Source of the DNA: a virus
Reading direction: 5' to 3' (one strand)
DNA: 10,967 nt
IMG/VR virus record: IMGVR_UViG_3300045988_159075
Coordinates: 1-10,967 of that record
Positions 1-10,967 of the stretch are shown one piece after another. A program made the position numbers and the translations under genes. The notes below the pieces were generated by a model that made no database searches, was not told the origin of the DNA, and saw only the letters and a list, made by a program, of their open reading frames with translations. Positions within the stretch are counted from its first letter, which is position 1, and the number at the start of each line of letters is the position of its first letter.

Positions 1-66
1 TATTTCTTAATACCTCATACGGGTAGTTATATTTCTTAATACCTCATACGGGTAGGTAGGGTAGGT
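1..66. repeat. Tandem direct repeats of a 29-bp unit (ATTTCTTAATACCTCATACGGGTAGTTAT), 2 copies, decaying into GGTAG micro-repeats.
   Basis: Copy 1 at 2-30 and copy 2 at 31-59 (period 29). The second copy ends ...CGGGTAGGTAGGGTAGGTAC, i.e. GGTAG x3-4. The same unit makes up the last 80 nt of the window. Confidence 0.9.
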
Positions 67-93
67 ACTATAGGCAAGATTTCCCCACGATAT

Positions 94-107
94 GTTTCAC
101 GTGAAAC
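94..107. repeat. Perfect 14-bp palindrome GTTTCACGTGAAAC at the centre of a larger imperfect palindrome (29-160).
   Basis: GTTTCACGTGAAAC equals its own reverse complement. It sits between the direct repeat units (left) and an inverted repeat unit (right). Confidence 0.9.
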
Positions 108-124
108 AACGCAACTATACACGA

Positions 125-160
125 CTATAGTAACTACCCGTATGAGGTATTAAGAAATAT
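125..160. repeat. Inverted copy of the 29-bp repeat unit plus the CTATAG box.
   Basis: 132-160 AACTACCCGTATGAGGTATTAAGAAATAT is the exact reverse complement of the 29-mer. 125-131 CTATAGT pairs with TACTATAG at 66-73. Confidence 0.9.
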
Positions 161-1019: not shown

Positions 1020-1613
1020 ATGATAACAGGTTTTATGTTTTCACCTATTATAAAAGGTATATTAACTGAAAATATTTTTAGGGATACAGATATTAAAATA
1101 ATAAAGAAAATAATTAATAAATCTTTACAAGTTGCAAATAGACGGTTACAAAATATAGAAAAAAGTGGTGTGGTTAGTACTGCATATAAATCGTTAATAA
1201 GTGAACTACCAAAAACATCTAATAAATTTTCAAAATTAAGTATTGGCAAACTTGATTTATCAGATACAACCCAAAGAGTTAAAGCACTTGACACTTATTC
1301 TAAGGCATTATCATTTTTGAATAATAAAACATCTACTGTAAAAGGAAGTAAACAATTTATCAATAAATTAGCAAAGAAAAATAATTTTTCTTTTTCAGAT
1401 ACTAGTAAAATGATTGATGAGATTACTGACGAACGTGTTATTAACGGTAATTTGGTTATTAACAATTGGGATTCTGAACGTATAGCTAATATGATTAGCG
1501 AATATAGCGATAAAGATAATAAATATAATACTGATATTGATAAATATATACGTCAAAAAATAGATGAAAATTTAAGTAAACAAAATGACAACTTTGATAT
1601 TTGGGATTTGTAA
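1020..1613 (+). CDS. Putative terminal protein (197 aa). An alternative start is ATG 1035.
   Basis: The ORF lies immediately upstream of the protein-primed DNA polymerase gene (stop 1611-1613, polymerase ATG 1616), the conserved TP-DNAP arrangement of phi29-like phages. The protein is charged with a Ser/Thr/Tyr-rich C-terminal half. No direct sequence similarity was verified. Confidence 0.45.
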   Translation: MITGFMFSPIIKGILTENIFRDTDIKIIKKIINKSLQVANRRLQNIEKSGVVSTAYKSLISELPKTSNKFSKLSIGKLDLSDTTQRVKALDTYSKALSFLNNKTSTVKGSKQFINKLAKKNNFSFSDTSKMIDEITDERVINGNLVINNWDSERIANMISEYSDKDNKYNTDIDKYIRQKIDENLSKQNDNFDIWDL

Positions 1614-1615
1614 AA

Positions 1616-3685
1616 ATGACTTTTTATAATAAATCTAATTTTTTAGATAGTTTAAAGAAATTTATGGGTAGTATTCCTAAATGCAATTATTGTCAAGATA
1701 AAAAAATATGGTATTGTAATATACCGTGTTCTTTTGATATTGAAACATCGTCATTTTTTAACGAAAAAGGCGAAAAGCAAGCAATTATGTATATATGGCA
1801 ATTTGCTATTTTTGATAATGTTATTATAGGTAGAACATGGAATGATTTTTTTATTTTAATAGATTACTTAGTAAAATTTTACACTCTTAACGCTAATATT
1901 CGTTTAGTGTGTTATGTTCATAATTTATCATACGAATTTCAATTTTTAAGAAAACTTTTTGAATGGTGTGATATTTTCGCTACTGATGAACGAAAACCTT
2001 TATATGCTTGTACAAAAAACGGAATAGAATTTAAATGTTCTTACAGACTTAGCGGTTACTCGTTAGCGGTTTTAGCTAAAAATCTTACACGACATACAAT
2101 TAATAAAAAAGTAGGTGATTTGGATTACTCTTTAATACGTCATTCAGATACATTTATTAGTAATAATGAATTGGAATATTGTATTAACGATGTTCTAATA
2201 GTTACATCATATATTCAAGAGTGTATAGAAGATTATGGCGATATAACAAAAATTCCTTTAACTCAAACTGGAAAAGTTAGAAGATATGTTAGGGAATTAA
2301 CATTAAAAGATAATGATTATAAATATTTGATTTGTAAATTAGAACTAAAAACAATGGAATATTTACAGTTACGAAAAGCGTTTCAAGGCGGTTTTACTCA
2401 TGCTAATCCTATGTACGTATTACAAGAATGTAAAGATGTTACAAGTTTTGATTTTACATCATCATATCCTACTGTTATGACTTCTGAAAAGTTTCCTATG
2501 TCTAGAAGTAAATATATAGGAACTGTTAGCATTGATACATTAAAATATTATATGAAAAATTATTGTTGTTTATTTGATTTAAAATTAACTAATGTTGTAA
2601 GTAAATATAATTTTGAAAATGTAATAAGTTTTTCTAAATGTTTTAGAATTAAAAATTATATTCTTAATAATGGTCGTGTTTTTAGTGCAGAAGAATTATA
2701 TACAACTATAACTGAATTAGATTATGAAGTTATATGTAAATTTTATAATTTTGATAATATTGAGATTCATAATTTATACATATATGAAAAAAATTATTTA
2801 CCTAAATCGTTTATTATGGCGATACTTAAATTATATAACGATAAAACACAATTAAAGGGTGTAAAGGGAAAAGAAATAGAATATTTACATTCTAAAGAAA
2901 TGTTAAATAGTTGCTACGGCATGACAGTTACAGATTTACTTAATGATGAATACATTTATGAAAATGATGAATGGAGTACTAAAGAAAGTAATATAGATAA
3001 TGCTATAGAATATTATAATAAAGATAAAAACAGATTTTTATTTTATCCGTGGGGAGTATGGGTAACTGCTTACGCTAGAAGAAATTTATTTACAGGAATC
3101 TTTGAATGTAAAAATGATTATATTTATGCCGATACCGATAGCATTAAAATCTTTAACGCTGATAAACATAAAAACTACATTAATAATTATAATACAATGA
3201 TTAAAAATAAATTAAAGGCAATGTGTAATCATTATAAAATTGATTTTGATTTATGTAGACCAAAAACTAAATATGGCGTTGAAAAAATTTTAGGTATTTG
3301 GGATTTTGACGGTAAATATAAAATATTTAAGTCATTAGGCGCAAAACGATATATGATTTATACAGATGATAATATATTAAGTATTACCGTTAGCGGAGTT
3401 AATAAAAAATTTGCAGTTCCTTATCTGATGAAAAAATATAATAATGATATTGAAAAAATATTTAGTGTTTTTGATGATTCGTTAGTATTTCCTAAAGGTA
3501 CTAACGGAAAAAAAGTATTAACATATATTGATTCAGAACAAAAAGGAATAGTTAAAGATTATTTAGGAAATGTTAAAGAATATGATGAAAAATCATCTAT
3601 TTTTATGGAAGATACAGAATATAATCTAAATATTGCTTGTGAATATTTAGATTTTATATTAAAATTAAATAAAAGGTGTGTATAA
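1616..3685 (+). CDS. Protein-primed family B DNA polymerase (689 aa from ATG 1616; the ORF track extends to TTG 1601).
   Basis: Exo I SFDIETS (D-x-E), Exo III YCINDVLIV, YxGG as FQGGF, motif A FDFTSSYPTV (Dx2SxYP), motif B KEMLNSCYGMT (Kx3NSxYG), motif C YADTDSI (YxDTDS), and KxY as GAKRYMIY. These all match the phi29 polymerase motif order. The true start is probably ATG 1616, just after the upstream gene's stop. Confidence 0.93.
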   Translation: MTFYNKSNFLDSLKKFMGSIPKCNYCQDKKIWYCNIPCSFDIETSSFFNEKGEKQAIMYIWQFAIFDNVIIGRTWNDFFILIDYLVKFYTLNANIRLVCYVHNLSYEFQFLRKLFEWCDIFATDERKPLYACTKNGIEFKCSYRLSGYSLAVLAKNLTRHTINKKVGDLDYSLIRHSDTFISNNELEYCINDVLIVTSYIQECIEDYGDITKIPLTQTGKVRRYVRELTLKDNDYKYLICKLELKTMEYLQLRKAFQGGFTHANPMYVLQECKDVTSFDFTSSYPTVMTSEKFPMSRSKYIGTVSIDTLKYYMKNYCCLFDLKLTNVVSKYNFENVISFSKCFRIKNYILNNGRVFSAEELYTTITELDYEVICKFYNFDNIEIHNLYIYEKNYLPKSFIMAILKLYNDKTQLKGVKGKEIEYLHSKEMLNSCYGMTVTDLLNDEYIYENDEWSTKESNIDNAIEYYNKDKNRFLFYPWGVWVTAYARRNLFTGIFECKNDYIYADTDSIKIFNADKHKNYINNYNTMIKNKLKAMCNHYKIDFDLCRPKTKYGVEKILGIWDFDGKYKIFKSLGAKRYMIYTDDNILSITVSGVNKKFAVPYLMKKYNNDIEKIFSVFDDSLVFPKGTNGKKVLTYIDSEQKGIVKDYLGNVKEYDEKSSIFMEDTEYNLNIACEYLDFILKLNKRCV

Positions 3686-3881: not shown

Positions 3882-4082
3882 ATGATTAAAAAGTTTGAAG
3901 TTTGTAGAATTAAGTCGTTTATATATCTTATTGAAGTTTATAATACAAATACTAGAAAAATAAAATATATTACCTCTATAGGTAAAAAAATTAAAGTTGA
4001 TTATGAACTTAATCCAGAAAGTAATAATATTATTAAATGTTATGATAATCTAAAGGAAGCGTTATCTGATTATGAAAAATAA
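3882..4082 (+). CDS. Hypothetical protein (66 aa), translationally coupled on both sides.
   Basis: Its ATG sits immediately after the upstream TAA (TAAATG). Its 3' end overlaps the ATPase start by 11 nt. No recognisable motifs. Confidence 0.45.
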   Translation: MIKKFEVCRIKSFIYLIEVYNTNTRKIKYITSIGKKIKVDYELNPESNNIIKCYDNLKEALSDYEK

Positions 4083-5169
4083 ATATTATAGTCTTTCAAA
4101 TATATTAAAAGAAAATTGTGATTATAATTTAATCATCGGTGAGAGGTCTAACGGTAAAACATACGCTTGTTTAATCCACGCTATAGAGGATTATATTAAA
4201 AATGGTAATGCAAGCGCATATATCAGACGTTGGAAAGAAGATATACAAGGAAAACGTGCTGAAACTATATTTAGTAGTGTAAATGAAAACAATGTTATAT
4301 CACAAATTACTAACGGTGAATACGATAATGTTATTTATTATAGGGGAAAATTTTTTCTTGCGCTATATGACAATGAAACCCATAAAATGCAATCAAGTAA
4401 AAAGCCCTTTTGTTATGCGTTTTCATTATCTGATGTAGAACATGATAAAAGCACATCATATCCGACAATAAAAAATATAATTTTTGATGAATTTATAACA
4501 CGTCAATATTATTTACCTAATGAATTTGTTATTTTTATGAATGTTTTAAGTACTATTATTAGAGATAAAAAAGATGTTAAAATTTTTATGTTGGGTAATA
4601 CTGTTAATAAATTTTGCCCTTATTTTGATGAAATGGGATTGATAAATATTCAAACGCAAAAACAGGGAACTATTGATGTTTATAGATATGGTGAAAATAC
4701 ATTAACTCTAGCAGTTGAATATTGCGGAACAGTAAACAAGAAAAAAGATAGTAACAAATATTTCGCTTTTAACAATCCTAGATTGAATATGATAACTAAC
4801 GGTGCTTGGGAATTAGCAATTTATCCCCATTTATCCCAAGGTCAAAAGATAAATAATAAAGATATTATTTTTCATTTTAATATATCTTTTGCCAATAAAA
4901 ATATTCAAGGTGATATTGTCGAAAATAATGACGGTTATTTTTTATTTTTTCATTATAGAACTAGTGAAATTAAAGATAATGAACTTTTATACACTCTTAA
5001 TTATACAACAAAACCGAATGTACGAAAATCATTTCTTTATAAAACAGATAAAATAGACATTAATATTTGCCGACTATTTCAGATAAGAAAAGTTTTTTAT
5101 CAATCAAATGATATCGGCGAAATTATTAAAAATTACTTGGGTGAATGTGTAAAAAATAATATAATGTGA
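4072..5169 (+). CDS. DNA encapsidation ATPase (phi29 gp16-like), 365 aa.
   Basis: Walker A IIGERSNGKTYA. Blocks YIRRWKEDI, IIFDEFITRQYYLPNEF and KIFMLGNTVNKFCPYF parallel the remembered phi29 gp16 segments VIGARGIGKSYA / YVRRYKPEL / IVFDEFIRE...IPNE / CICLSNAVSVVNPYF. AAAGGAAG Shine-Dalgarno. TGA stop. Confidence 0.85.
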   Translation: MKNKYYSLSNILKENCDYNLIIGERSNGKTYACLIHAIEDYIKNGNASAYIRRWKEDIQGKRAETIFSSVNENNVISQITNGEYDNVIYYRGKFFLALYDNETHKMQSSKKPFCYAFSLSDVEHDKSTSYPTIKNIIFDEFITRQYYLPNEFVIFMNVLSTIIRDKKDVKIFMLGNTVNKFCPYFDEMGLINIQTQKQGTIDVYRYGENTLTLAVEYCGTVNKKKDSNKYFAFNNPRLNMITNGAWELAIYPHLSQGQKINNKDIIFHFNISFANKNIQGDIVENNDGYFLFFHYRTSEIKDNELLYTLNYTTKPNVRKSFLYKTDKIDINICRLFQIRKVFYQSNDIGEIIKNYLGECVKNNIM

Positions 5170-5192: not shown

Positions 5193-6257
5193 ATGAAAAA
5201 ACAAATTAATTATGATAACGCAAAAAAATACTTATTTGAAAAAGATATTTTCATTAATAATTATATTGCGTATATGTTTGACAGAACCCAAAAAATGTTT
5301 AAATATGAAAATTTACCCGAATCAATACCGCAAAGAATACTTGAATATATGTTACAGAAAAATGGCAATGTCTTTATTACCAAGGTTAACGGTAAATTAT
5401 ATGCTTTTAATGGTGGTTTGGGTGGTGTACCTAACGAATATTACGAACCGACAATTTACACGGTAACAAATCCATATCTTGAAATATCTGAAAATTATAA
5501 AATTGATATTGACGGCATATTGTTTAGAAATGATTCTATGATGATAGGATTATTGCCGATATTTACAAAATCCGCCTTTATGAATTGCGATTGTGAAATT
5601 ACATTGAATATGTTATCAATTCTTTTTAGAGTTCAATATATGCTGACTGCTAGCGATGATAAAAGTAAAACAAGTGCCGAAATGTTTATGCAGAAGTTAA
5701 AGAATGGTGATATGTCTGTTGTTGCAGATTCACAATTTTTTGAAGGTGTAAAACTTCAATCTTATAACGGAAGTGAGCATATTATTGAGCAGATGATAGG
5801 ATTATCTCAATACATCAAGGCTAGCGCATTGAACGATATAGGATTAAACGCTAATTTTATTATGAAAAAAGAGCGGTTAATCACAAGTGAAATAAATGTT
5901 AATGAAAGTGCATTACTACCGTTTATTGAAAATATGCTTGAAGAGCGAAAAAAAGCGATTGAAAAAATAAATGCCATGTTTGGAACAGATATAAAAGTTG
6001 AATTATCGTGTGTATGGAATGAGCAAGTAAAAACACATGAGGAAAATATTATTGAAGAAAATAATAAAATTGAAGATTCAGAAAAGACTGATGAAGATTC
6101 AGAAAAGACTGATGAAGATTCAGAAAAGACTGATGAAGATTCAGAAAAGACTGATGAAGATTCAGAAAAGACTGATGAAGATTCAGAAAAGACTGATGAA
6201 GATTCAGAAAAGACTGATGAAGATTCTAAACGAAAAGGCGGTAAAAATGACATATAA
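5193..6257 (+). CDS. Portal/head-tail connector protein (phi29 gp10-like) with a C-terminal 7x DSEKTDE acidic tandem repeat.
   Basis: YENLPESIPQRILEYMLQKNGNVF...NGGLGG and NANFIMKKERLITSEINVNESAL parallel remembered phi29 gp10 WENLPPTINPSFLEKS...CNGAL and [21 protein letters not shown]. GGAG Shine-Dalgarno 6 nt before the ATG. The acidic C-terminus resembles that of phi29 gp10. Confidence 0.8.
   Translation: MKKQINYDNAKKYLFEKDIFINNYIAYMFDRTQKMFKYENLPESIPQRILEYMLQKNGNVFITKVNGKLYAFNGGLGGVPNEYYEPTIYTVTNPYLEISENYKIDIDGILFRNDSMMIGLLPIFTKSAFMNCDCEITLNMLSILFRVQYMLTASDDKSKTSAEMFMQKLKNGDMSVVADSQFFEGVKLQSYNGSEHIIEQMIGLSQYIKASALNDIGLNANFIMKKERLITSEINVNESALLPFIENMLEERKKAIEKINAMFGTDIKVELSCVWNEQVKTHEENIIEENNKIEDSEKTDEDSEKTDEDSEKTDEDSEKTDEDSEKTDEDSEKTDEDSEKTDEDSKRKGGKNDI
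6072..6226. repeat. Perfect 21-bp tandem repeat (GAAGATTCAGAAAAGACTGAT), about 7.4 copies, in frame within the portal gene's 3' end.
   Basis: Copies start at 6072, 6093, 6114, 6135, 6156, 6177 and 6198, with a partial copy at 6219-6226. No mismatches. The repeat encodes (E)DSEKTD heptads and leaves all three forward frames and the reverse strand open. Confidence 0.95.
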
Positions 6258-6834
6258 TAATTTATTTTCAAATACTGATGTTATATCAGCACTAAAAAAT
6301 GCTGATAATGTAAAATTTAATGAAATATTTGGTGAAAATTATGATTCAGTCATATTAGACGGCTATATTAAGTTTACTATGGGTGAATATGAATGCACTG
6401 ATAAAACAATTGAAAGTTTCAATAAACAAGGTATAGAAAATATTTGTAAATGGCTATGGCTAAAATATTATGACAGTTGGAAATCTTTGTTAAAAAGTTT
6501 AGCGGTTAGTTATGAAAATTCAGATAGTGAAAATGAAACTATTGAACATACTCAAAATATGCAGTCAACATCAGTATCAACTAGTACAGATACAAATAAA
6601 GTTTTTGCCTATGATAGCGAAACTGCTAGTGATAATACTTTGAATGATACAACTAATGATAATAACGGTACTAATAATTTAACCGAAAAAACAACAAGAA
6701 ATAAAACAGGATATAATTACGGTTCGTCATTATTTGATTTGATTAAAAAATACAATGATTTTCAAATTGAAAATACTTTCGTTGACATTATTTCAAAAGA
6801 TGTTATAATGTTTTTATGCCATACTATAATTTAG
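6247..6834 (+). CDS. Hypothetical morphogenesis-module protein (195 aa), possibly a collar, adaptor or scaffold protein.
   Basis: ATG 6247 preceded by AAAGGCGG. The portion of the track ORF upstream (6037-6246) is an out-of-frame read through the portal repeats. The C-terminal half is Ser/Thr/Asn/Asp-rich and low-complexity. TAG stop. It sits after the portal gene, where phi29 has the lower collar. Confidence 0.6.
   Translation: MTYNNLFSNTDVISALKNADNVKFNEIFGENYDSVILDGYIKFTMGEYECTDKTIESFNKQGIENICKWLWLKYYDSWKSLLKSLAVSYENSDSENETIEHTQNMQSTSVSTSTDTNKVFAYDSETASDNTLNDTTNDNNGTNNLTEKTTRNKTGYNYGSSLFDLIKKYNDFQIENTFVDIISKDVIMFLCHTII
6782..6809 (+). promoter_or_regulatory. Perfect-consensus sigma-A promoter with extended -10, the likely late (capsid/tail operon) promoter.
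   Basis: -35 TTGACA at 6782-6787, a 16-nt spacer, then TGtTATAAT at 6801-6809. It lies in the 3' end of the 195-aa ORF, 38 nt upstream of the small-peptide gene's start. Confidence 0.6.
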
Positions 6835-6846
6835 GAGATAAAAATC

Positions 6847-7029
6847 ATGGATGAAAAGAAAAAAACACAGATTAAAAACGCATTTACTACATTTGTCAAG
6901 GCGTTGATTCCCCCTATAATTGCGCTAATATCCGCTATCCTCACAACTATTGTAAGCGGTGATAATATAGCAGTTGCTACTTCAGTTGGAGCAGTTGCAG
7001 GATACGTCGCTAATAACGTTGTAGGATAA
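6847..7029 (+). CDS. Small hydrophobic glycine-zipper membrane peptide (60 aa), holin-like candidate.
   Basis: Strong Shine-Dalgarno AGGAGA 8 nt upstream of the ATG. Basic N-terminus MDEKKKTQIKNAF, then a hydrophobic segment, then a Gly/Ala/Val-rich segment (VATSVGAVAGYVANNVVG). TAA stop. Confidence 0.6.
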   Translation: MDEKKKTQIKNAFTTFVKALIPPIIALISAILTTIVSGDNIAVATSVGAVAGYVANNVVG

Positions 7030-7032
7030 ATT

Positions 7033-7197
7033 ATGGACAAATTATTCAAGACATTATTGAAAGTAGGAACAACAGTTGCAGCAGTTGTAATATCTAACGC
7101 TTGCGGAGTTGATAAAAACATGGCTATTGCAATCGGTTCTGTTGTAGGTTCTACCGTTAGCGGTACGTTTGATTTATCTATTAAAGATGGAAAGTAA
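7033..7197 (+). CDS. Paralogous small hydrophobic glycine-zipper peptide (54 aa).
   Basis: Same architecture (MDK..., two short hydrophobic Gly/Ala/Val segments AAVVISNACGV / AIAIGSVVGSTVSG). Same reading frame as the upstream peptide, one stop plus one codon apart. AGGAT Shine-Dalgarno. Confidence 0.55.
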   Translation: MDKLFKTLLKVGTTVAAVVISNACGVDKNMAIAIGSVVGSTVSGTFDLSIKDGK

Positions 7198-7202
7198 ATA
7201 AA

Positions 7203-8384
7203 ATGAAAGTTGAACAGATACATACAATTGTAAATGAAATAACAAAAGAATTGCTTGGCGAAACCGCTGTAGTAAATGAAGATTTGTCAAATATTGTTGA
7301 CATAGGCCAGACCTTATTTGATTCAACAAGCGTTGACAATTATGTTAAAACACTTTGCGACCATATCGGCAAAGTTGTTTTTGTTAACCGCTCATACGCT
7401 GGTAATGTTCCTAGCGTTTTAATGGACGGTTGGGAATACGGTTCGGTACTTGAAAAAATAAGTGCAGATATTCCCGAAGCAAAAGAAAATGAAACGTGGG
7501 AACTTACGAATGGTCAAAGTTACGATGTTAACGTGTTCTACAAGCCGACAGTTGCAACAAAGTTCTTCAATAAGAAAGTAACTTTTGAAATACCAATGTC
7601 ATTTACAGAAAAACAGGTTAAAGGTTCATTCAGTTCTGCTGAACAGATGAACGGTTTTCTGTCTATGATTCAGAACGCCGTTGAAAAGTCAATGACTGTT
7701 AAAATTGATTCTCTTATTATGAGAACAATCAACAATATGACGGCACAGACGGTTGTCAACGCTTTTGGAGTAGTTGACGCTGATACAGGCTATTCTGAAA
7801 AAAACAGTGTAAGGGCGGTTAACCTTTTGAAACAGTACAATGACAAGTTCGGCGGTGCATTGACCGCTGAAAAATGTTTGACAGACCCTGCATTTATCAG
7901 ATTTGCAACTTACACAATTTCATTGTATAGGGATAGACTTAGTAAAATATCTAACCTTTTCAATATTGGCGGTAAGTCAAGATTTACTGCAAATGATATG
8001 TTGCATACAGTTTTACTTGCGGATTTCAAGGCAAGCGCAACGGCGTATCTTGAAAGTGATACATTTCACAATGACCTTGTAAAGTTGCCTAATTCTGAAA
8101 CTGTACCGTATTGGCAGGGTAGCGGAACAAGTTACGGATTTGCGGATGTTTCTTCTATTGATGTTAAGACGCCGAACCTTAAGGCCGAAGGAACTGTTGA
8201 TGTGAAACTTAGCGGTATTTTAGGTGTTATGTTTGACCGGGACGCTTTGGGCGTTGCTAATCTTGACAGAAGAGTAACAACAAACTACAATGCAAAAGCA
8301 GAATTTTACAACAATTATTATAAATTTGATGCAGGTTATTTTAACGACACAAACGAAAACTTTATTGTATTCTTTGTAGCCTAA
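7203..8384 (+). CDS. Major capsid protein, phi29 gp8-like (HK97 fold), 393 aa, without a C-terminal BIG2 domain.
   Basis: DNYVKTLCDHIGKVVFV matches remembered gp8 NDFITSLVDRIGLVVIR. FSSAEQMNGFLSMIQNAVEKSMTVKIDSL matches [27 protein letters not shown]. Shorter than phi29 gp8 (448 aa). Followed by a strong terminator. Confidence 0.8.
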   Translation: MKVEQIHTIVNEITKELLGETAVVNEDLSNIVDIGQTLFDSTSVDNYVKTLCDHIGKVVFVNRSYAGNVPSVLMDGWEYGSVLEKISADIPEAKENETWELTNGQSYDVNVFYKPTVATKFFNKKVTFEIPMSFTEKQVKGSFSSAEQMNGFLSMIQNAVEKSMTVKIDSLIMRTINNMTAQTVVNAFGVVDADTGYSEKNSVRAVNLLKQYNDKFGGALTAEKCLTDPAFIRFATYTISLYRDRLSKISNLFNIGGKSRFTANDMLHTVLLADFKASATAYLESDTFHNDLVKLPNSETVPYWQGSGTSYGFADVSSIDVKTPNLKAEGTVDVKLSGILGVMFDRDALGVANLDRRVTTNYNAKAEFYNNYYKFDAGYFNDTNENFIVFFVA

Positions 8385-8404: not shown

Positions 8405-8434
8405 AGGGTTAGGTTTTCCTAACCCTATTTTTTT
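8405..8434 (+). terminator. Rho-independent terminator after the capsid gene.
   Basis: AGGGTTAGG (8405-8413), loop TTTT, CCTAACCCT (8418-8426), then a T7 run at 8428-8434. Confidence 0.85.
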
Positions 8435-8444
8435 AGGTATTAAA

Positions 8445-8876: not shown

Positions 8877-10897
8877 TGGCTAGAATACTTAGTATTAAAG
8901 TTGCTGATGATATTTTTAAAAATGGTACTGACGCATATATTAATTATAGTAGAAACGGATTTACAGGAAATATATCTACATCAAAAGAGGATACACTACC
9001 ATTATCAGCTTCTTTTGTACGTAATGACTATACACAAAATACTATCCCCGATTTAGGAATAGTCGTTAAAAACACTGATATAATCACAGATATATCAAAA
9101 ATGATTCTTAAAGGTGAGAATATCAATATTGAAAATATTACAACCGAGGATAAAATAACATCAACAGGAAGACATAGATTATTATTACATATACCCGAAA
9201 ATATAATTGTAAATCAAAATGCAACTATTACAATAAGCGGTGATTTTATTCAATATCCTGTTGAAAACCCTAAAATAACACCAACATATAATTTAACTAA
9301 TTGTTCAATATCACCACAACCAACAGAAATAAATAACGGTGATGAAATAACTTTTACAGTGTCTAAAAATAATGATACGGATATTTTTACAAACATACCT
9401 AATATTAACGGAAAAATTGACGGTGTAACATTTTCAAATGATTTTACATTAGATACAAATGGTAACTATATACTAACTAAACAATTTAATTTTACTGACG
9501 CTAACAATACTGAAATAACTATAAACGCCATTGCAAACACTATAGAAATTACACCGACAATAACAATTGAAGGTTCAACAGTCAAAATCCGCCCTAATAT
9601 TAGCGGCGGTGAATATGTAACTACATTAAAAAACGGTGTTGAATATTTAATTGAAACTGAAAGTGATAATCTAAACGGATATTTTTTTAAATCTATTCCT
9701 AAAATAATAGTTAAAATAAACGGTGTTTCAGAAACTATTAATATGTTAGACCAATATCCCGAAGCAACAAATAAAACTAAATATTATTTAGTGAAAACTT
9801 TTAATTTTAAATCTGAAAATGATACTGTAGATGTTATTGCGATAGCAACAGATACAATTATTATAGAACCAATATATAATATAGACCATTGTACAATAAA
9901 CCCAAAACCATTATTTATAAAACCTAAACAGGAATATACATTTAATGTAAAAGCCGATGAAGGATTTATATTTAAAACTACACCATATTTAAACCTTAAA
10001 TTAGACGGTTTAGAAAGTACAGTTACATTTGATAAAGTAGATGATTACACATTTACATTAACATATACATTTAATTTTATTTCTACAGGTTCAACAAGTA
10101 TAGAATTTAATTTATTCGCTAAATCTGAAAACAATCCGATAGCCCAAAAATACGGCTTTATAACATTATATAGCCCGACCACAAAAGAACTAATAGCAAT
10201 ATCAAGAAAAAGACTTCTAAAAGTTGCTAGTTCTAATGAAGGTTACGCGGATATTGATTTAGGGCAATATATTACTTCATTAAAAAGAATATTTTGTAAA
10301 ATTCCAACAGATGAATCTGAAAATGTTGTATTAGGTATTTTTAACACGGGTGTTTCTTGTAAATCAATACCAAATGACAATATAGAATTATCTTTCGGTG
10401 ATGTACAATGTAACGGTTATTATAATAATTCCCAAGATTTGACAGATACATCAATACAGATTTTATTACCATTTTGCAATGTAATTGATATTGAAACTAT
10501 TAATATTAATTCTAAAATTACTGTTAAAATGAATGTTAATGTTCTAAGTGGTAACGCAACAGTGCATATATATTCAGATGACATTTTAATAAAAACAGTT
10601 GATACAAATATTTCAATTAAAATACCATATACATTATATGGTCAAGTATCACAAGAATTAAGTGTACATAACCAAAGACAAAATGACAATGCGATATTTG
10701 AAATAATACCACAGATTATTGTATATGAAAAAATAAACAATAATAGTCATAATGTATATAATACTTCTAAATATGATTTAATTTCAAATGAAAAAGGCTT
10801 TTTCAGAATTGAGCATATAGAAATGAATATGAACATGAAAAGCGACGAATACGAATTAATAATAAATGAATTGAAAAACGGTTGTTATATTTCTTAA
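8876..10897 (+). CDS. Large tail/receptor-binding structural protein (673 aa from ATG 8876) with tandem Ig-like modules.
   Basis: ATG 8876 preceded by GGGAG at 9-nt spacing; the track's TTG 8852 start is an extension. Two clear ~90-aa repeats (ITPTYNLTNCSISPQP...EITFTV... and IEPIYNIDHCTINPKP...EYTFNV...) plus a third degenerate module. It is the only large ORF left for tail functions, and its TAA stop lies inside the terminal repeat array. Confidence 0.7.
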   Translation: MARILSIKVADDIFKNGTDAYINYSRNGFTGNISTSKEDTLPLSASFVRNDYTQNTIPDLGIVVKNTDIITDISKMILKGENINIENITTEDKITSTGRHRLLLHIPENIIVNQNATITISGDFIQYPVENPKITPTYNLTNCSISPQPTEINNGDEITFTVSKNNDTDIFTNIPNINGKIDGVTFSNDFTLDTNGNYILTKQFNFTDANNTEITINAIANTIEITPTITIEGSTVKIRPNISGGEYVTTLKNGVEYLIETESDNLNGYFFKSIPKIIVKINGVSETINMLDQYPEATNKTKYYLVKTFNFKSENDTVDVIAIATDTIIIEPIYNIDHCTINPKPLFIKPKQEYTFNVKADEGFIFKTTPYLNLKLDGLESTVTFDKVDDYTFTLTYTFNFISTGSTSIEFNLFAKSENNPIAQKYGFITLYSPTTKELIAISRKRLLKVASSNEGYADIDLGQYITSLKRIFCKIPTDESENVVLGIFNTGVSCKSIPNDNIELSFGDVQCNGYYNNSQDLTDTSIQILLPFCNVIDIETININSKITVKMNVNVLSGNATVHIYSDDILIKTVDTNISIKIPYTLYGQVSQELSVHNQRQNDNAIFEIIPQIIVYEKINNNSHNVYNTSKYDLISNEKGFFRIEHIEMNMNMKSDEYELIINELKNGCYIS

Positions 10898-10967
10898 TAC
10901 CTCATACGGGTAGTTATATTTCTTAATACCTCATACGGGTAGTTATATTTCTTAATACCTCATACGG
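10888..10967. repeat. 2.76 tandem copies of the same 29-bp unit; the last 51 nt are identical to window bases 1-51.
   Basis: Copies start at 10888, 10917 and 10946 (the last truncated by the window end). The array overlaps the tail gene's stop codon at 10895-10897. Confidence 0.9.

What the first reader, a model, noticed from the sequence alone, without database searches (positions are those of the whole stretch)
6847..7197. Tandem paralogous Gly/Ala/Val-rich mini-membrane peptides directly upstream of the capsid gene; no endolysin anywhere
The two peptides (60 and 54 aa) share an architecture: a charged MD(E)K N-terminus, a hydrophobic stretch, then a small-residue glycine-zipper-like stretch. 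They have the strongest ribosome-binding site in the genome and sit at the head of the late operon. They resemble small holins or pore-forming, bacteriocin-like two-peptide systems more than any structural protein. Together with the absence of a recognisable endolysin, this suggests either a lysin-independent, membrane-only lysis strategy (conceivable for a wall-less code-11 host such as Acholeplasma or phytoplasma-like Mollicutes) or a holin pair whose endolysin is supplied elsewhere. Their position inside the head-gene block is itself unusual, since scaffolding protein normally sits there.
Basis: partly seen in the sequence, partly recalled or inferred. Interest (0 to 1): 0.7.

Follow-up and report, generated by a model that had tools for sequence, protein, structure and literature searches.

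The report
Mobile two-peptide lysis-like cassette, no endolysin
Two tiny, conserved membrane peptides sit behind the strongest promoter of an 11-kb gut phage that has lost both its usual holin and its cell-wall enzyme, and the same pair occurs in an unrelated single-stranded DNA virus inside a Treponema chromosome; they are therefore most likely a portable host-killing or release module that works without a wall-degrading enzyme, though this has not been tested.

Summary
The two ORFs, here called pepA (6847-7029) and pepB (7033-7197), are real genes. pepA has about 90 database homologues. Both peptides are under purifying selection (dN/dS 0.07-0.27), and the antisense ORF is broken in most relatives. 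Each is predicted to be a helix-turn-helix hairpin with an AxxxGxxxG glycine zipper. They are the only membrane proteins in a complete, all-plus-strand, tiny phi29-like genome related to Astrithrvirus.

They are not demonstrable paralogues (hhalign probability 4.6%). pepA's ribosome-binding site is strong but not the strongest in the genome.

A perfect sigma-70 consensus promoter lies 38 nt upstream of pepA, and a terminator follows the capsid gene.

No endolysin is present in this genome or in nine other full-length genomes that carry the pair. Relatives without the pair carry a PHROG-4898 holin, and most of them also carry an endolysin. The holin and the pair never occur together.

The pair also occurs, at 68% and 56% identity, in a Microviridae prophage integrated next to mreBCD-pbp2-rodA in a Treponema chromosome. 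pepA alone occurs in other microvirus-like elements. TGA is a stop codon. A wall-less host is therefore unlikely.

Best reading: a mobile lysis cassette that needs no endolysin. The mechanism is inferred, not shown.

The parts
6782..6809 (+). Sigma-70-type promoter, TTGACA-16 nt-(TG)TATAAT, inside the 3' end of the lower-collar gene and 38 nt upstream of pepA
   Evidence: It is the only 12/12 consensus match in the window. It is conserved at the nucleotide level in all genus members. In L015, which lacks the peptides, the same promoter and ribosome-binding site are fused directly to the capsid gene.
6833..6837 (+). Shine-Dalgarno AGGAG of pepA, 9 nt before the ATG
   Evidence: Read directly from the sequence. 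Duplex energy is -7.3 kcal/mol, third strongest in the genome.
6847..7029 (+). pepA, 60 aa. It has a charged N-terminus (1-12), a transmembrane helix with an invariant Pro22 kink (13-37), an SGDN turn, and a glycine-zipper helix (41-60).
   Evidence: About 90 homologues. dN/dS is 0.07-0.19. The AlphaFold2 hairpin has pLDDT 75. There are weak, sub-threshold matches to Pfam glycine-zipper families and to holin PHROGs.
7033..7197 (+). pepB, 54 aa. It has two weakly hydrophobic helices (2-23 and 28-46) around an invariant Cys24-Gly25, the zipper A31-G35-G39-S43, and a charged C-terminal tail. It starts 3 nt after the pepA stop and has a weak ribosome-binding site, so translational coupling is likely.
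   Evidence: Conserved after pepA in all genus relatives, in the second genus L044, and in the Treponema microvirus prophage L040. dN/dS is 0.09-0.27. The lipobox pattern is met in 10 of 15 distinct homologues, but not in the window's own ISNAC. AlphaFold2 gives pLDDT 56.
7203..8384 (+). Major capsid protein (Phi29_MCP), co-transcribed with pepA and pepB
   Evidence: Pfam PF25622 E=5.8e-56 and PHROG 2006. It is 60-62% identical to the Astrithrvirus capsid protein.
8405..8436 (+). Intrinsic-terminator-like hairpin plus T-run that closes the pepA-pepB-capsid unit
   Evidence: A 9-bp stem with 5 GC pairs, followed by ATTTTTTT.

Best explanation
pepA and pepB form a small accessory cassette that can move between phages. 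In this clade of about 11-kb phi29-like gut podophages it takes the place of the usual holin and endolysin, and it serves host killing and release of progeny.

Proposed mechanism, inferred:
1. The cassette is transcribed with the capsid gene from the strong late promoter.
2. pepA inserts into the cytoplasmic membrane, N-terminus inside, through its Pro-kinked helix.
3. pepA oligomerises through the AxxxGxxxG face of its C-terminal helix. pepB has a matching zipper and may be lipid-anchored through Cys24; it joins or tunes this assembly.
4. Once enough has accumulated, the complex makes lesions that collapse the membrane potential.
5. The wall then fails through the host's own autolytic enzymes, not through a phage muramidase.

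Shown here:
- gene reality and conservation;
- hairpin and zipper architecture (predicted);
- placement between the promoter and the terminator;
- absence of any endolysin;
- mutual exclusion with the PHROG-4898 holin;
- transfer of the pair between a tailed phage and a microvirus of a walled diderm.

Inferred:
- membrane insertion and topology;
- oligomerisation;
- lethality;
- how the peptidoglycan is breached.
For: 1. pepA and pepB are the only membrane proteins encoded in a complete genome.
2. Ten full-length genomes with the pair (window, L019, L022, L025, L027, L029, L030, L031, L044, L045) have no endolysin and no PHROG-4898/YvrJ-like holin. Fifteen related loci with that holin never carry the pair, and 11 of them have an endolysin (and the precomputed Pfam annotations).
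3. Every other window protein that has a counterpart in related phages has it in phages that carry their own endolysin. The 195-aa protein matches the lower collar, the 143-aa protein the N part of the knob, and the C-terminus of the 673/681-aa protein (461-671) the C part of the knob (PMC11476376). No hidden lysin is therefore likely.
4. The pair is the first thing transcribed from the only perfect consensus promoter. This is the position that the S holin gene holds in the lambda late operon (established knowledge).
5. The pair occurs at 68% and 56% identity (73% and 67% against L029) in a Microviridae prophage in a Treponema chromosome. pepA alone occurs in another microvirus contig (L038, beside Rep and Phage_ORF5) and in 6.2-kb Rep_OBD elements. 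Sharing across unrelated virion types argues for a host-directed function rather than a structural one. Small lytic ssDNA phages are known to lyse without endolysins (PMC10229422).
6. Strong purifying selection acts on both peptides.
7. Glycine zippers are typical of oligomeric membrane channels (established knowledge). Family members give weak hits to Gly-zipper Pfam families (best E 1e-4) and to holin PHROGs.
Against: - There is no functional test.
- No match to any holin family is significant (best E=0.014-0.03).
- pepA lacks the charged C-terminal tail typical of holins.
- L015, a contig of the same genus, lacks the pair, the holin and an endolysin. The cassette may therefore be dispensable, although L015's capsid ORF is broken.
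- Two holin-bearing relatives (L033, L036) also lack a recognisable endolysin, so the link between holin and endolysin is not perfect.
- The relative Phanie needs a helper phage, which could supply lysis.
- Membrane depolarisation alone is not known to lyse Gram-negative-type cells.
- The window phage's host is inferred, not demonstrated.
Confidence: 0.42

Rival explanations
1. Single-gene-lysis ('amurin') mechanism. The transmembrane helix of pepA, with its conserved Pro, binds and blocks a membrane step of peptidoglycan precursor supply such as MraY or MurJ, as phiX174 E and the Sgl proteins of ssRNA phages M and PP7 do. Growing cells then burst at the septum. pepB would be an accessory factor.
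For: - No endolysin is present in any genome with the pair.
- The family occurs in microviruses, the class of phage known to use Sgl proteins (PMC10229422).
- Pro22 in the transmembrane helix is nearly invariant, which recalls the essential Pro21 of E (from memory).
- The prophage host encodes the full elongasome.
- pepA occurs without pepB in several elements.
Against: - Known Sgl proteins are highly diverse, usually overprinted genes with a single transmembrane helix and no glycine zipper.
- This family is a free-standing gene, conserved at 30-100% identity across virus types.
- The best-conserved motif is an oligomerisation-type zipper.
- High co-expression with the capsid gene behind a strong ribosome-binding site differs from the weakly translated E gene (established knowledge).
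Confidence: 0.18
2. The peptides are holin and antiholin, and the endolysin comes from elsewhere: a helper phage, a co-resident prophage, or a host SAR-type or secreted hydrolase. In this reading the tiny phage is satellite-like.
For: - The related phage Phanie is infectious only when attached to the tail of helper myophage Aci01-1. The review's authors suggest that other Gram-negative phi29-like phages may behave likewise (PMC11476376).
- L015 lacks every lysis candidate.
- pepA pairs one strongly and one weakly hydrophobic helix, similar to the pinholin S21 68 as I recall its sequence.
Against: - Phanie and the astrithr-type phages keep their own holin and endolysin.
- The same pair is carried by a microvirus prophage that has no known helper and no endolysin.
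- Dependence on a helper does not explain why a new cassette was gained while the old holin was lost.
Confidence: 0.14
3. The cassette is not a lysis module. It is a superinfection-exclusion, receptor-masking or membrane-anchoring module: a small inner-membrane protein plus a small, possibly lipidated, envelope peptide that blocks DNA entry by competitors or tethers replication and assembly to the membrane.
For: - Cys24 of pepB is invariant, follows a signal-like helix, and fits a lipobox in 10 of 15 homologues. Phage lipoproteins such as T5 Llp and Cor act in exclusion (established knowledge).
- The pair sits at the edge of the prophage, next to the host junction.
- It is dispensable in L015.
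- phi29 uses small membrane proteins (p1, p16.7) for membrane-associated replication.
Against: - The pair is strictly mutually exclusive with the PHROG-4898 holin.
- It is expressed from the late capsid promoter rather than with the early genes.
- The phage would then have no candidate for release at all.
- PADLOC shows no defence-family match.
Confidence: 0.15
4. One reading: the host has no cell wall (Acholeplasma- or phytoplasma-like, code 11), so membrane disruption alone releases the phage.
For: - The genome has 27% GC, uses code 11 and has no endolysin.
Against: - The cassette works in a virus integrated in a Treponema chromosome beside mreB, mreC, mreD, pbp2 and rodA.
- The capsid protein is 60-71% identical to those of phages of Gram-negative bacteria and to a contig binned with a Treponema MAG.
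- Astrithr is about 12 GC points below Salmonella (L001 39.7%; host about 52%, established knowledge). A 27% GC phage therefore fits a host of about 39% GC.
Confidence: 0.05
5. The real gene is the antisense ORF 6831-7223, or the peptides are chance ORFs, scaffolding proteins or virion proteins.
For: - The antisense frame is open for 130 codons in the window.
- It shows low apparent dN/dS because its wobble positions coincide with those of the forward frame.
Against: - The antisense frame has stops in 6 of 7 relatives within pepA and is cut to 62-82 codons in most. It has no family match.
- The forward ORFs keep their exact lengths across about 90 homologues.
- The peptides are absent from related phages with the same virion genes.
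Confidence: 0.02

Closest known systems
Class II holins and pinholins (e.g. lambdoid phage 21 S21 68)
   Same: Small size (about 60-70 aa). Two helices, one strongly and one weakly hydrophobic and rich in Gly/Ala/Ser. A glycine zipper for oligomerisation. Encoded at the start of the late transcript.
   Different: No adjacent endolysin, SAR-type or other. The helix order is reversed. pepA has no charged C-terminal tail. No significant HMM match to any holin family.
PHROG 4898 / YvrJ / BhlA-like one-helix holin of Astrithrvirus-type phages (astrithr gp05, Phanie gp05)
   Same: It is the only membrane protein of the sister phages, and pepA-pepB replace it one-for-one across the group.
   Different: No sequence relationship. 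It sits at a different locus, between the ATPase and the connector. It has one transmembrane helix plus a coiled-coil tail, and it is usually accompanied by an endolysin.
Single-gene lysis proteins: phiX174 E, and the Sgl proteins of ssRNA phages M, PP7 and MS2 (L)
   Same: Small membrane peptides that lyse walled cells without a muralytic enzyme. They occur in very small phages, including Microviridae. A Pro in the transmembrane helix is conserved.
   Different: pepA is a free-standing, well-conserved gene rather than an overprinted, fast-evolving one. It has a glycine-zipper hairpin. It comes with a partner peptide in tailed dsDNA phages. No target is known.
Glycine-zipper membrane domains (Pfam PF05433 Rick_17kDa_Anti/SlyB-Pcp type, PF13441 Gly-zipper_YMGG, PF13488 Gly-zipper_Omp)
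   Same: The (A/G/S)xxxGxxxG helix-hairpin motif. Nine, nine and seven of 31 family members give weak matches (best E 1e-4 to 9e-4).
   Different: The window's own peptides give no match. The cellular proteins are larger envelope lipoproteins with no lytic role.
Two-component spanins (Rz/Rz1)
   Same: Adjacent or overlapping genes. One product has an N-terminal membrane anchor. The other is a short peptide with a Cys after a signal-like helix.
   Different: The periplasmic parts are only about 24 and 30 residues, too short to bridge the two membranes. There is no endolysin to act after. The lipobox is not conserved in all members.
Small lytic lipoproteins (colicin release/lysis proteins, entericidin B)
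   Same: pepB resembles them in size: a precursor of about 50 aa, Cys at about position 24, and a Gly/Ser/Thr/Val-rich mature part of about 30 aa.
   Different: No HMM match. The N-terminal helix is conserved beyond what a signal peptide needs. Position -2 of the would-be lipobox can be N, D or K.
Class IIb two-peptide bacteriocins (lactococcin G type)
   Same: Two co-transcribed peptides with GxxxG-type motifs, thought to pack helix-to-helix and permeabilise membranes.
   Different: No double-glycine leader, immunity gene or exporter. The peptides act from inside a phage-infected cell.

Membership tests
Holin (any class) | Small protein with at least one transmembrane helix | tested here: met
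   pepA residues 19-37 give a Hessa sum of +1 to +2 kcal/mol and a Kyte-Doolittle 17-residue maximum of 2.40. AlphaFold2 predicts helices 3-37 and 41-59. These are predictions only.
Holin (any class) | Encoded next to, or in a cassette with, an endolysin | tested here: not met
   No endolysin was found in the window or in nine other full-length genomes with the pair.
Holin (any class) | Significant match to a curated holin family (Pfam or PHROG) | tested here: not met
   The best matches are phrog_6384 at E=0.026 for the window's pepA, and phrog_1299 at 0.014 and phrog_1129 at 0.033 among 31 members. Pfam holin hits are at or above 0.015.
Holin (any class) | Hydrophilic, highly charged C-terminal domain | tested here: not met
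   pepA ends ...YVANNVVG with no charge; its charged segment is N-terminal. pepB has a short charged tail, DLSIKDGK.
Holin (any class) | Timed, lethal permeabilisation of the cytoplasmic membrane | not testable with these tools
   This needs induced expression with membrane-potential and viability read-outs.
Single-gene lysis protein (amurin/Sgl) | The phage lacks a muralytic enzyme | tested here: met
   The microvirus prophage L040 has none either.
Single-gene lysis protein (amurin/Sgl) | One gene is sufficient for lysis and acts by blocking peptidoglycan precursor synthesis or export | not testable with these tools
   This needs expression, precursor analysis and suppressor screens.
Two-component spanin | An inner-membrane subunit whose periplasmic domain is long enough to reach an outer-membrane lipoprotein subunit | tested here: not met
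   pepA has only about 24 residues after its transmembrane helix, and the mature part of pepB would be about 30 residues.
Bacterial lipoprotein (pepB) | Lipobox [LIVMFWSTAG]2-[LIVMFYSTAGCQ]-[AGS]-C at residues 15-35, after a positively charged N-terminus (PROSITE-type rule, recalled from memory) | tested here: inconclusive
   Cys24 is invariant. Ten of 15 distinct homologues fit (ISTAC, ISQAC). The window's ISNAC, and ISDAC and ITKAC in others, do not.
Glycine zipper 2TM / Gly-zipper Pfam families | Score above the Pfam gathering threshold | tested here: not met
   There are only weak matches in 7-9 of 31 family members (best E 1.2e-4) and none for the window's pepA or pepB. The motif itself is present.
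   BLASTP E=0.77 and hhalign probability 4.6%. The one weak cross-hit is the L044 pepB against the pepA HMM, at E=9e-5 in a database of a few thousand ORFs.
Astrithrvirus-like tiny phi29-type podophage (genomic context) | Protein-primed PolB, gp16-type ATPase, phi29-type connector and capsid protein, split tail knob, genome of about 11 kb | tested here: met
   The roles are taken from PMC11476376.

The most novel reading that the evidence does not exclude
The pepA family of 55-63-aa glycine-zipper hairpin peptides is an undescribed lysis effector that needs no endolysin and is used by gut microviruses outside the phiX174 group. Tiny tailed dsDNA podophages of the same hosts, probably Treponema, captured it together with pepB and then discarded both holin and endolysin. 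These would be the first tailed phages of a walled, two-membrane bacterium that lyse without any muralytic enzyme.
Probability: 0.3. Interest if true: 0.85.

Novelty: new variant of a known kind. Interest (0 to 1): 0.62.

Why it matters
Tailed dsDNA phages are held to need a holin plus an endolysin, and in Gram-negative hosts a spanin as well. Only ssRNA phages and phiX174-type ssDNA phages are known to lyse with a single small protein (PMC10229422).

For most microviruses no lysis gene of the phiX174 E type has been described. The survey I read mentions only accessory genes, such as peptidases, that are likely to act in lysis (PMC9239249).

A conserved peptide family has three properties that bear on this:
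- it replaces holin and endolysin in a tailed phage;
- it is shared with microviruses;
- it acts in a walled spirochaete.

Such a family would give a concrete, clonable candidate for both problems. If it turns out to target cell-wall synthesis, it could also point to a new weak spot in the bacterial envelope.

The work also links an abundant but host-less group of about 11-kb gut phages to Treponema. It documents a microvirus that appears to be truly integrated in a spirochaete chromosome.

Tried and rejected
- **Family searches.** Pfam, PHROGs, NCBIfam and PADLOC scans of pepA, pepB and 31 family members gave no significant family.
- **Structure-based searches.** PDB sequence search with both profiles found nothing meaningful. 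Foldseek of the pepA model against viral structures gave no hit below E=2.
- **GenBank phages.** tblastn of pepA, P0059, P0062 and P0091 against 50,697 GenBank phage records found no match. The low-complexity filter may hide weak matches.
- **Metagenome collections.** Back-translated motif and profile scans of IMG/VR and of JGI metagenome contigs gave 0 hits. The pattern does work on the fetched loci. The diverse alignment was too variable for the search for related loci.
- **Host assignment.** A capsid-protein search of GTDB genomes returned MAG bins from four unrelated taxa (Treponema, Bacilli, Ca. Enterousia, Christensenellaceae). I treated these as binning noise, not as host evidence.
- **Closest GenBank microvirus.** MG945905, the nearest relative of the Treponema prophage, is a partial record that lacks the relevant region.
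- **Hidden lysin.** Rejected for the 673/681-aa and 195-aa proteins. They have no domain hits and are homologous to knob and collar proteins of phages that carry a separate endolysin.
- **Code 4.** Rejected because TGA ends the ATPase gene here and pepB in four relatives.
- **Literature.** Searches on Treponema microviruses and on tailed phages without endolysins found no prior description.
Full report
**What the window is**

The 10,967-bp window is a complete genome of a very small phi29-type podophage, with every gene on the + strand.
- HMM scans identify a protein-primed family-B DNA polymerase (1601-3685), a gp16-type packaging ATPase (4072-5169), a phi29-type connector (5193-6257) and a Phi29_MCP capsid protein (7203-8384).
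[quoted passage not shown] All of these genomes are about 10-12 kb.
- By homology to those phages, and using the roles given in a review (PMC11476376), the 195-aa protein (6247-6834) is the lower collar, the 143-aa protein is the N part of the tail knob, and the 673/681-aa protein is Ig-like repeats plus the C part of the knob.
- The contig ends carry the same 29-nt unit in direct orientation. A circularly permuted relative, L030, runs from the tail gene straight into the early genes. No gene is therefore missing off the end of the contig.
- TGA ends the ATPase gene here and pepB in four relatives, so the code is 11 and not 4.

**Checking the observation**

I call the ORF at 6847-7029 pepA (60 aa) and the ORF at 7033-7197 pepB (54 aa).
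- A search of 5.8 billion proteins found 48 pepA homologues of 73-100% identity, all exactly 60 aa. They come from human gut metagenomes and lie on contigs of up to about 11 kb.
- A profile search of 1.84 billion cluster representatives, and a second profile search, added about 40 more distant members of 55-63 aa.
- pepB follows pepA in every relative of the genus. Gene callers sometimes missed it.
- Against seven relatives, forward-frame dN/dS is 0.07-0.19 for pepA and 0.09-0.27 for pepB, with dS around 1.
- The antisense ORF 6831-7223 carries stops in 6 of 7 relatives within pepA. Its longest open stretch falls to 62-67 codons in four of them. It matches no family. The forward genes are the real ones.

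**Anatomy**
- pepA has a charged N-terminus (MDEKKKTQIKNA), a hydrophobic helix with Pro22 (nearly invariant across the family; Pro22-Pro23 are invariant in the close relatives), an SGDN turn, and a C-terminal helix with small residues every fourth position (A44-G48-G52-N56-G60).
- pepB has two weakly hydrophobic helices around an invariant Cys24-Gly25. Its zipper is A31-G35-G39-S43, and it has a short charged tail.
- AlphaFold2 predicts helix-turn-helix hairpins for both: pepA at pLDDT 75 with helices 3-19, 21-37 and 41-59; pepB at pLDDT 56 with helices 2-23 and 28-46.
- Among the real genes, only these two exceed a Kyte-Doolittle 17-residue mean of 1.6.
- The two are not detectably homologous: BLASTP E=0.77 and hhalign probability 4.6%. 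'Paralogous' is therefore unproven; they share an architecture.
- Cys24 of pepB follows a signal-peptide-like helix and fits a lipobox in 10 of 15 distinct homologues. The window's own ISNAC, and ISDAC and ITKAC in others, do not fit. Lipidation is possible but unresolved.

**Expression context**
- The only 12/12 match to the sigma-70 consensus in the window (TTGACA, 16 nt, TG-TATAAT) lies at 6782-6809, inside the end of the collar gene and 38 nt before pepA. A hairpin with a T-run follows the capsid gene at 8405-8436.
- The promoter is conserved at the nucleotide level in all genus members. In L015, which lacks the peptides, the same promoter and ribosome-binding site are joined directly to the capsid gene. 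The cassette therefore sits between the late promoter and the capsid gene.
- pepA has a good AGGAG site (-7.3 kcal/mol), but two other genes have stronger ones. pepB's own site is weak and its ATG lies 3 nt after the pepA stop, which suggests translational coupling.

**No endolysin, and what the relatives show**
- No ORF on either strand matches a peptidoglycan hydrolase family.
- I compared 47 loci using local BLAST with eight endolysins from relatives, and HMMs built for pepA, pepB and the relatives' small membrane protein.
- Fifteen loci carry a 62-83-aa one-helix protein, usually between the ATPase and the connector. It matches PHROG 4898 'holin' (E=2.7e-12 for L005 and 3e-5 for astrithr gp05) and, weakly, YvrJ and BhlA. 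Eleven of these loci also have an endolysin. None has pepA or pepB.
- All ten full-length genomes with pepA and pepB have neither that holin nor an endolysin. They fall into two genera: the window's own, and L044/L045, whose pepA is 48% identical.
- Exceptions: L015 has none of the three, but its capsid ORF is broken. L033 and L036 have the holin but no recognisable endolysin.

**The cassette is mobile, and the host has a wall**
- P0065, a pepA homologue 68% identical to the window's (73% to L029's), lies in a 48.8-kb bacterial contig (L040). It is followed by an uncalled pepB homologue (56% and 67% identical) and then by microvirus genes: pilot protein, Rep, and a Phage_F capsid protein.
- This microvirus is flanked on one side by mreB-mreC-mreD-pbp2-rodA and on the other by mfd. 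An independent assembly, L041, shows the same junction.
- The MreB sequence is identical to an NCBI protein named as from Treponema sp. The PBP2 and the zinc-ribbon protein cluster with Treponema sp. entries.
- pepA alone occurs on another microvirus contig, between Rep/Phage_ORF5 and the next gene (L038). It also occurs on 6.2-kb elements with a Rep_OBD protein (L042/L043) and on L039.
- A pair of genes shared by unrelated virion types is unlikely to be structural. It points to a function directed at the host.
- The prophage host is a walled diderm, so the cassette does not require a wall-less cell.
- The window phage's own host is not shown. Four points make a Treponema-like host plausible: the shared cassette; the Gram-negative hosts of the cultured relatives; a related contig binned with a Treponema MAG (weak evidence); and a GC offset like that of astrithr relative to Salmonella.

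**Interpretation**

The most economical reading is that pepA-pepB is a lysis cassette that works without a phage muramidase and has displaced the ancestral holin and endolysin.
- I favour a pore or lesion mechanism. pepA would oligomerise through its glycine zipper, pepB would act as partner, the membrane potential would collapse, and host autolysins would complete the lysis. The reasons are that the best-conserved feature is an oligomerisation-type zipper and that the gene occupies the classical holin position behind the late promoter.
- An Sgl-type block of wall-precursor supply is the main mechanistic rival. It is attractive because microviruses carry the family and because ssDNA and ssRNA phages are known to lyse this way (PMC10229422).
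- Two further rivals cannot be excluded: a helper phage or other outside source of endolysin (the Phanie precedent), and a function other than lysis, such as exclusion or membrane anchoring.
- The wall-less-host idea and the antisense ORF are effectively ruled out.

**Comparison with known systems**

The family matches no curated holin, lipoprotein, bacteriocin or defence family. It has no solved or predicted structural relative and no homologue in 50,697 GenBank phage records.
- It resembles class II holins and pinholins in size and in its pattern of helices, but it fails the tests for an adjacent endolysin, a charged C-terminus and family membership.
- It resembles Sgl proteins in biological setting but not in gene architecture.
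- It resembles spanins only in having a membrane anchor paired with a Cys-peptide; its periplasmic parts are too short.
- I therefore class it as a new variant of a known kind, small phage membrane proteins that kill the host. Its function is inferred from comparative genomics only.

Noticed in passing
window 1-159 and 10888-10967: A 29-nt unit, TATTTCTTAATACCTCATACGGGTAGTTA, occurs twice at the left end and 2.75 times at the right end in direct orientation, so the contig closes on itself. An inverted copy lies at 131-159, beyond a 72-nt spacer that contains the palindrome GTTTCACGTGAAAC. This is odd for a protein-primed genome, which is expected to be linear with inverted terminal repeats. 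It may mark the true termini or the origin, or it may be an assembly artefact.
   Followed up: partly
window 6071-6247 (3' end of connector gene 5193-6257): Seven perfect 21-nt tandem repeats encode DSEKTDE x7 at the connector C-terminus. Connector length varies from 320 to 397 aa among close relatives, so the acidic tail expands and contracts.
   Followed up: partly
L040 about 9,800-16,200 (GCA_963599585.1 contig CAVBXG010000013.1); also L041: A complete Microviridae genome is integrated in a Treponema sp. chromosome between rodA and mfd, and it was seen in two independent assemblies. A published survey (PMC9239249) treated Spirochaetes-microvirus links as unreliable single-contig bins. Three direct repeats, TGGATAAGTA(A/G)ACAGAA, lie just upstream of its pepA homologue.
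   Followed up: partly
L042 2971-3144 and L043 5057-5230: pepA-family genes also sit on circular-looking elements of about 6.2 kb. These encode a Rep_OBD replication protein and no recognisable capsid protein. Their nature is unknown.
   Followed up: partly
L015 6880-8622: A member of the same genus lacks pepA and pepB, with the late promoter and ribosome-binding site fused directly to the capsid gene. Its capsid ORF is split in two, and it has an extra 164-aa ORF after the capsid gene. It is either a defective or mis-assembled genome, or evidence that the cassette is dispensable.
   Followed up: partly
L019 7462-7743 (also L020, L022, L025, L027, L029, L031); absent from the window: Most relatives carry a 93-aa ORF with no family match between pepB and the capsid gene. 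L033 has a 98-aa ORF in the same position that shares the motifs NGGYV and KPIF. It may be an accessory head protein.
   Followed up: no
window 4072-5169 versus 7203-8384: The genome is mosaic. The capsid protein is 85% identical to that of L044 but only 72% to that of L019. The ATPase and polymerase are 87-91% identical to L019's, and the ATPase only 70% to L044's. A recombination breakpoint probably lies near the cassette.
   Followed up: partly
L001 4164-4352, L002 4307-4519, L005 4843-5034 and 12 further loci: Astrithrvirus-type phages share a small one-helix protein, annotated as hypothetical in astrithr and Phanie and usually lying between the ATPase and the connector. It matches PHROG 4898 'holin' and, weakly, YvrJ and BhlA. 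It is probably their unannotated holin.
   Followed up: yes
window 6512-6643 (+), inside the lower-collar gene: An overlapping 43-aa ORF in another frame stays open in several relatives (L015, L017-L019, L025). This is probably a by-product of the conserved host gene and the AT-rich composition.
   Followed up: no
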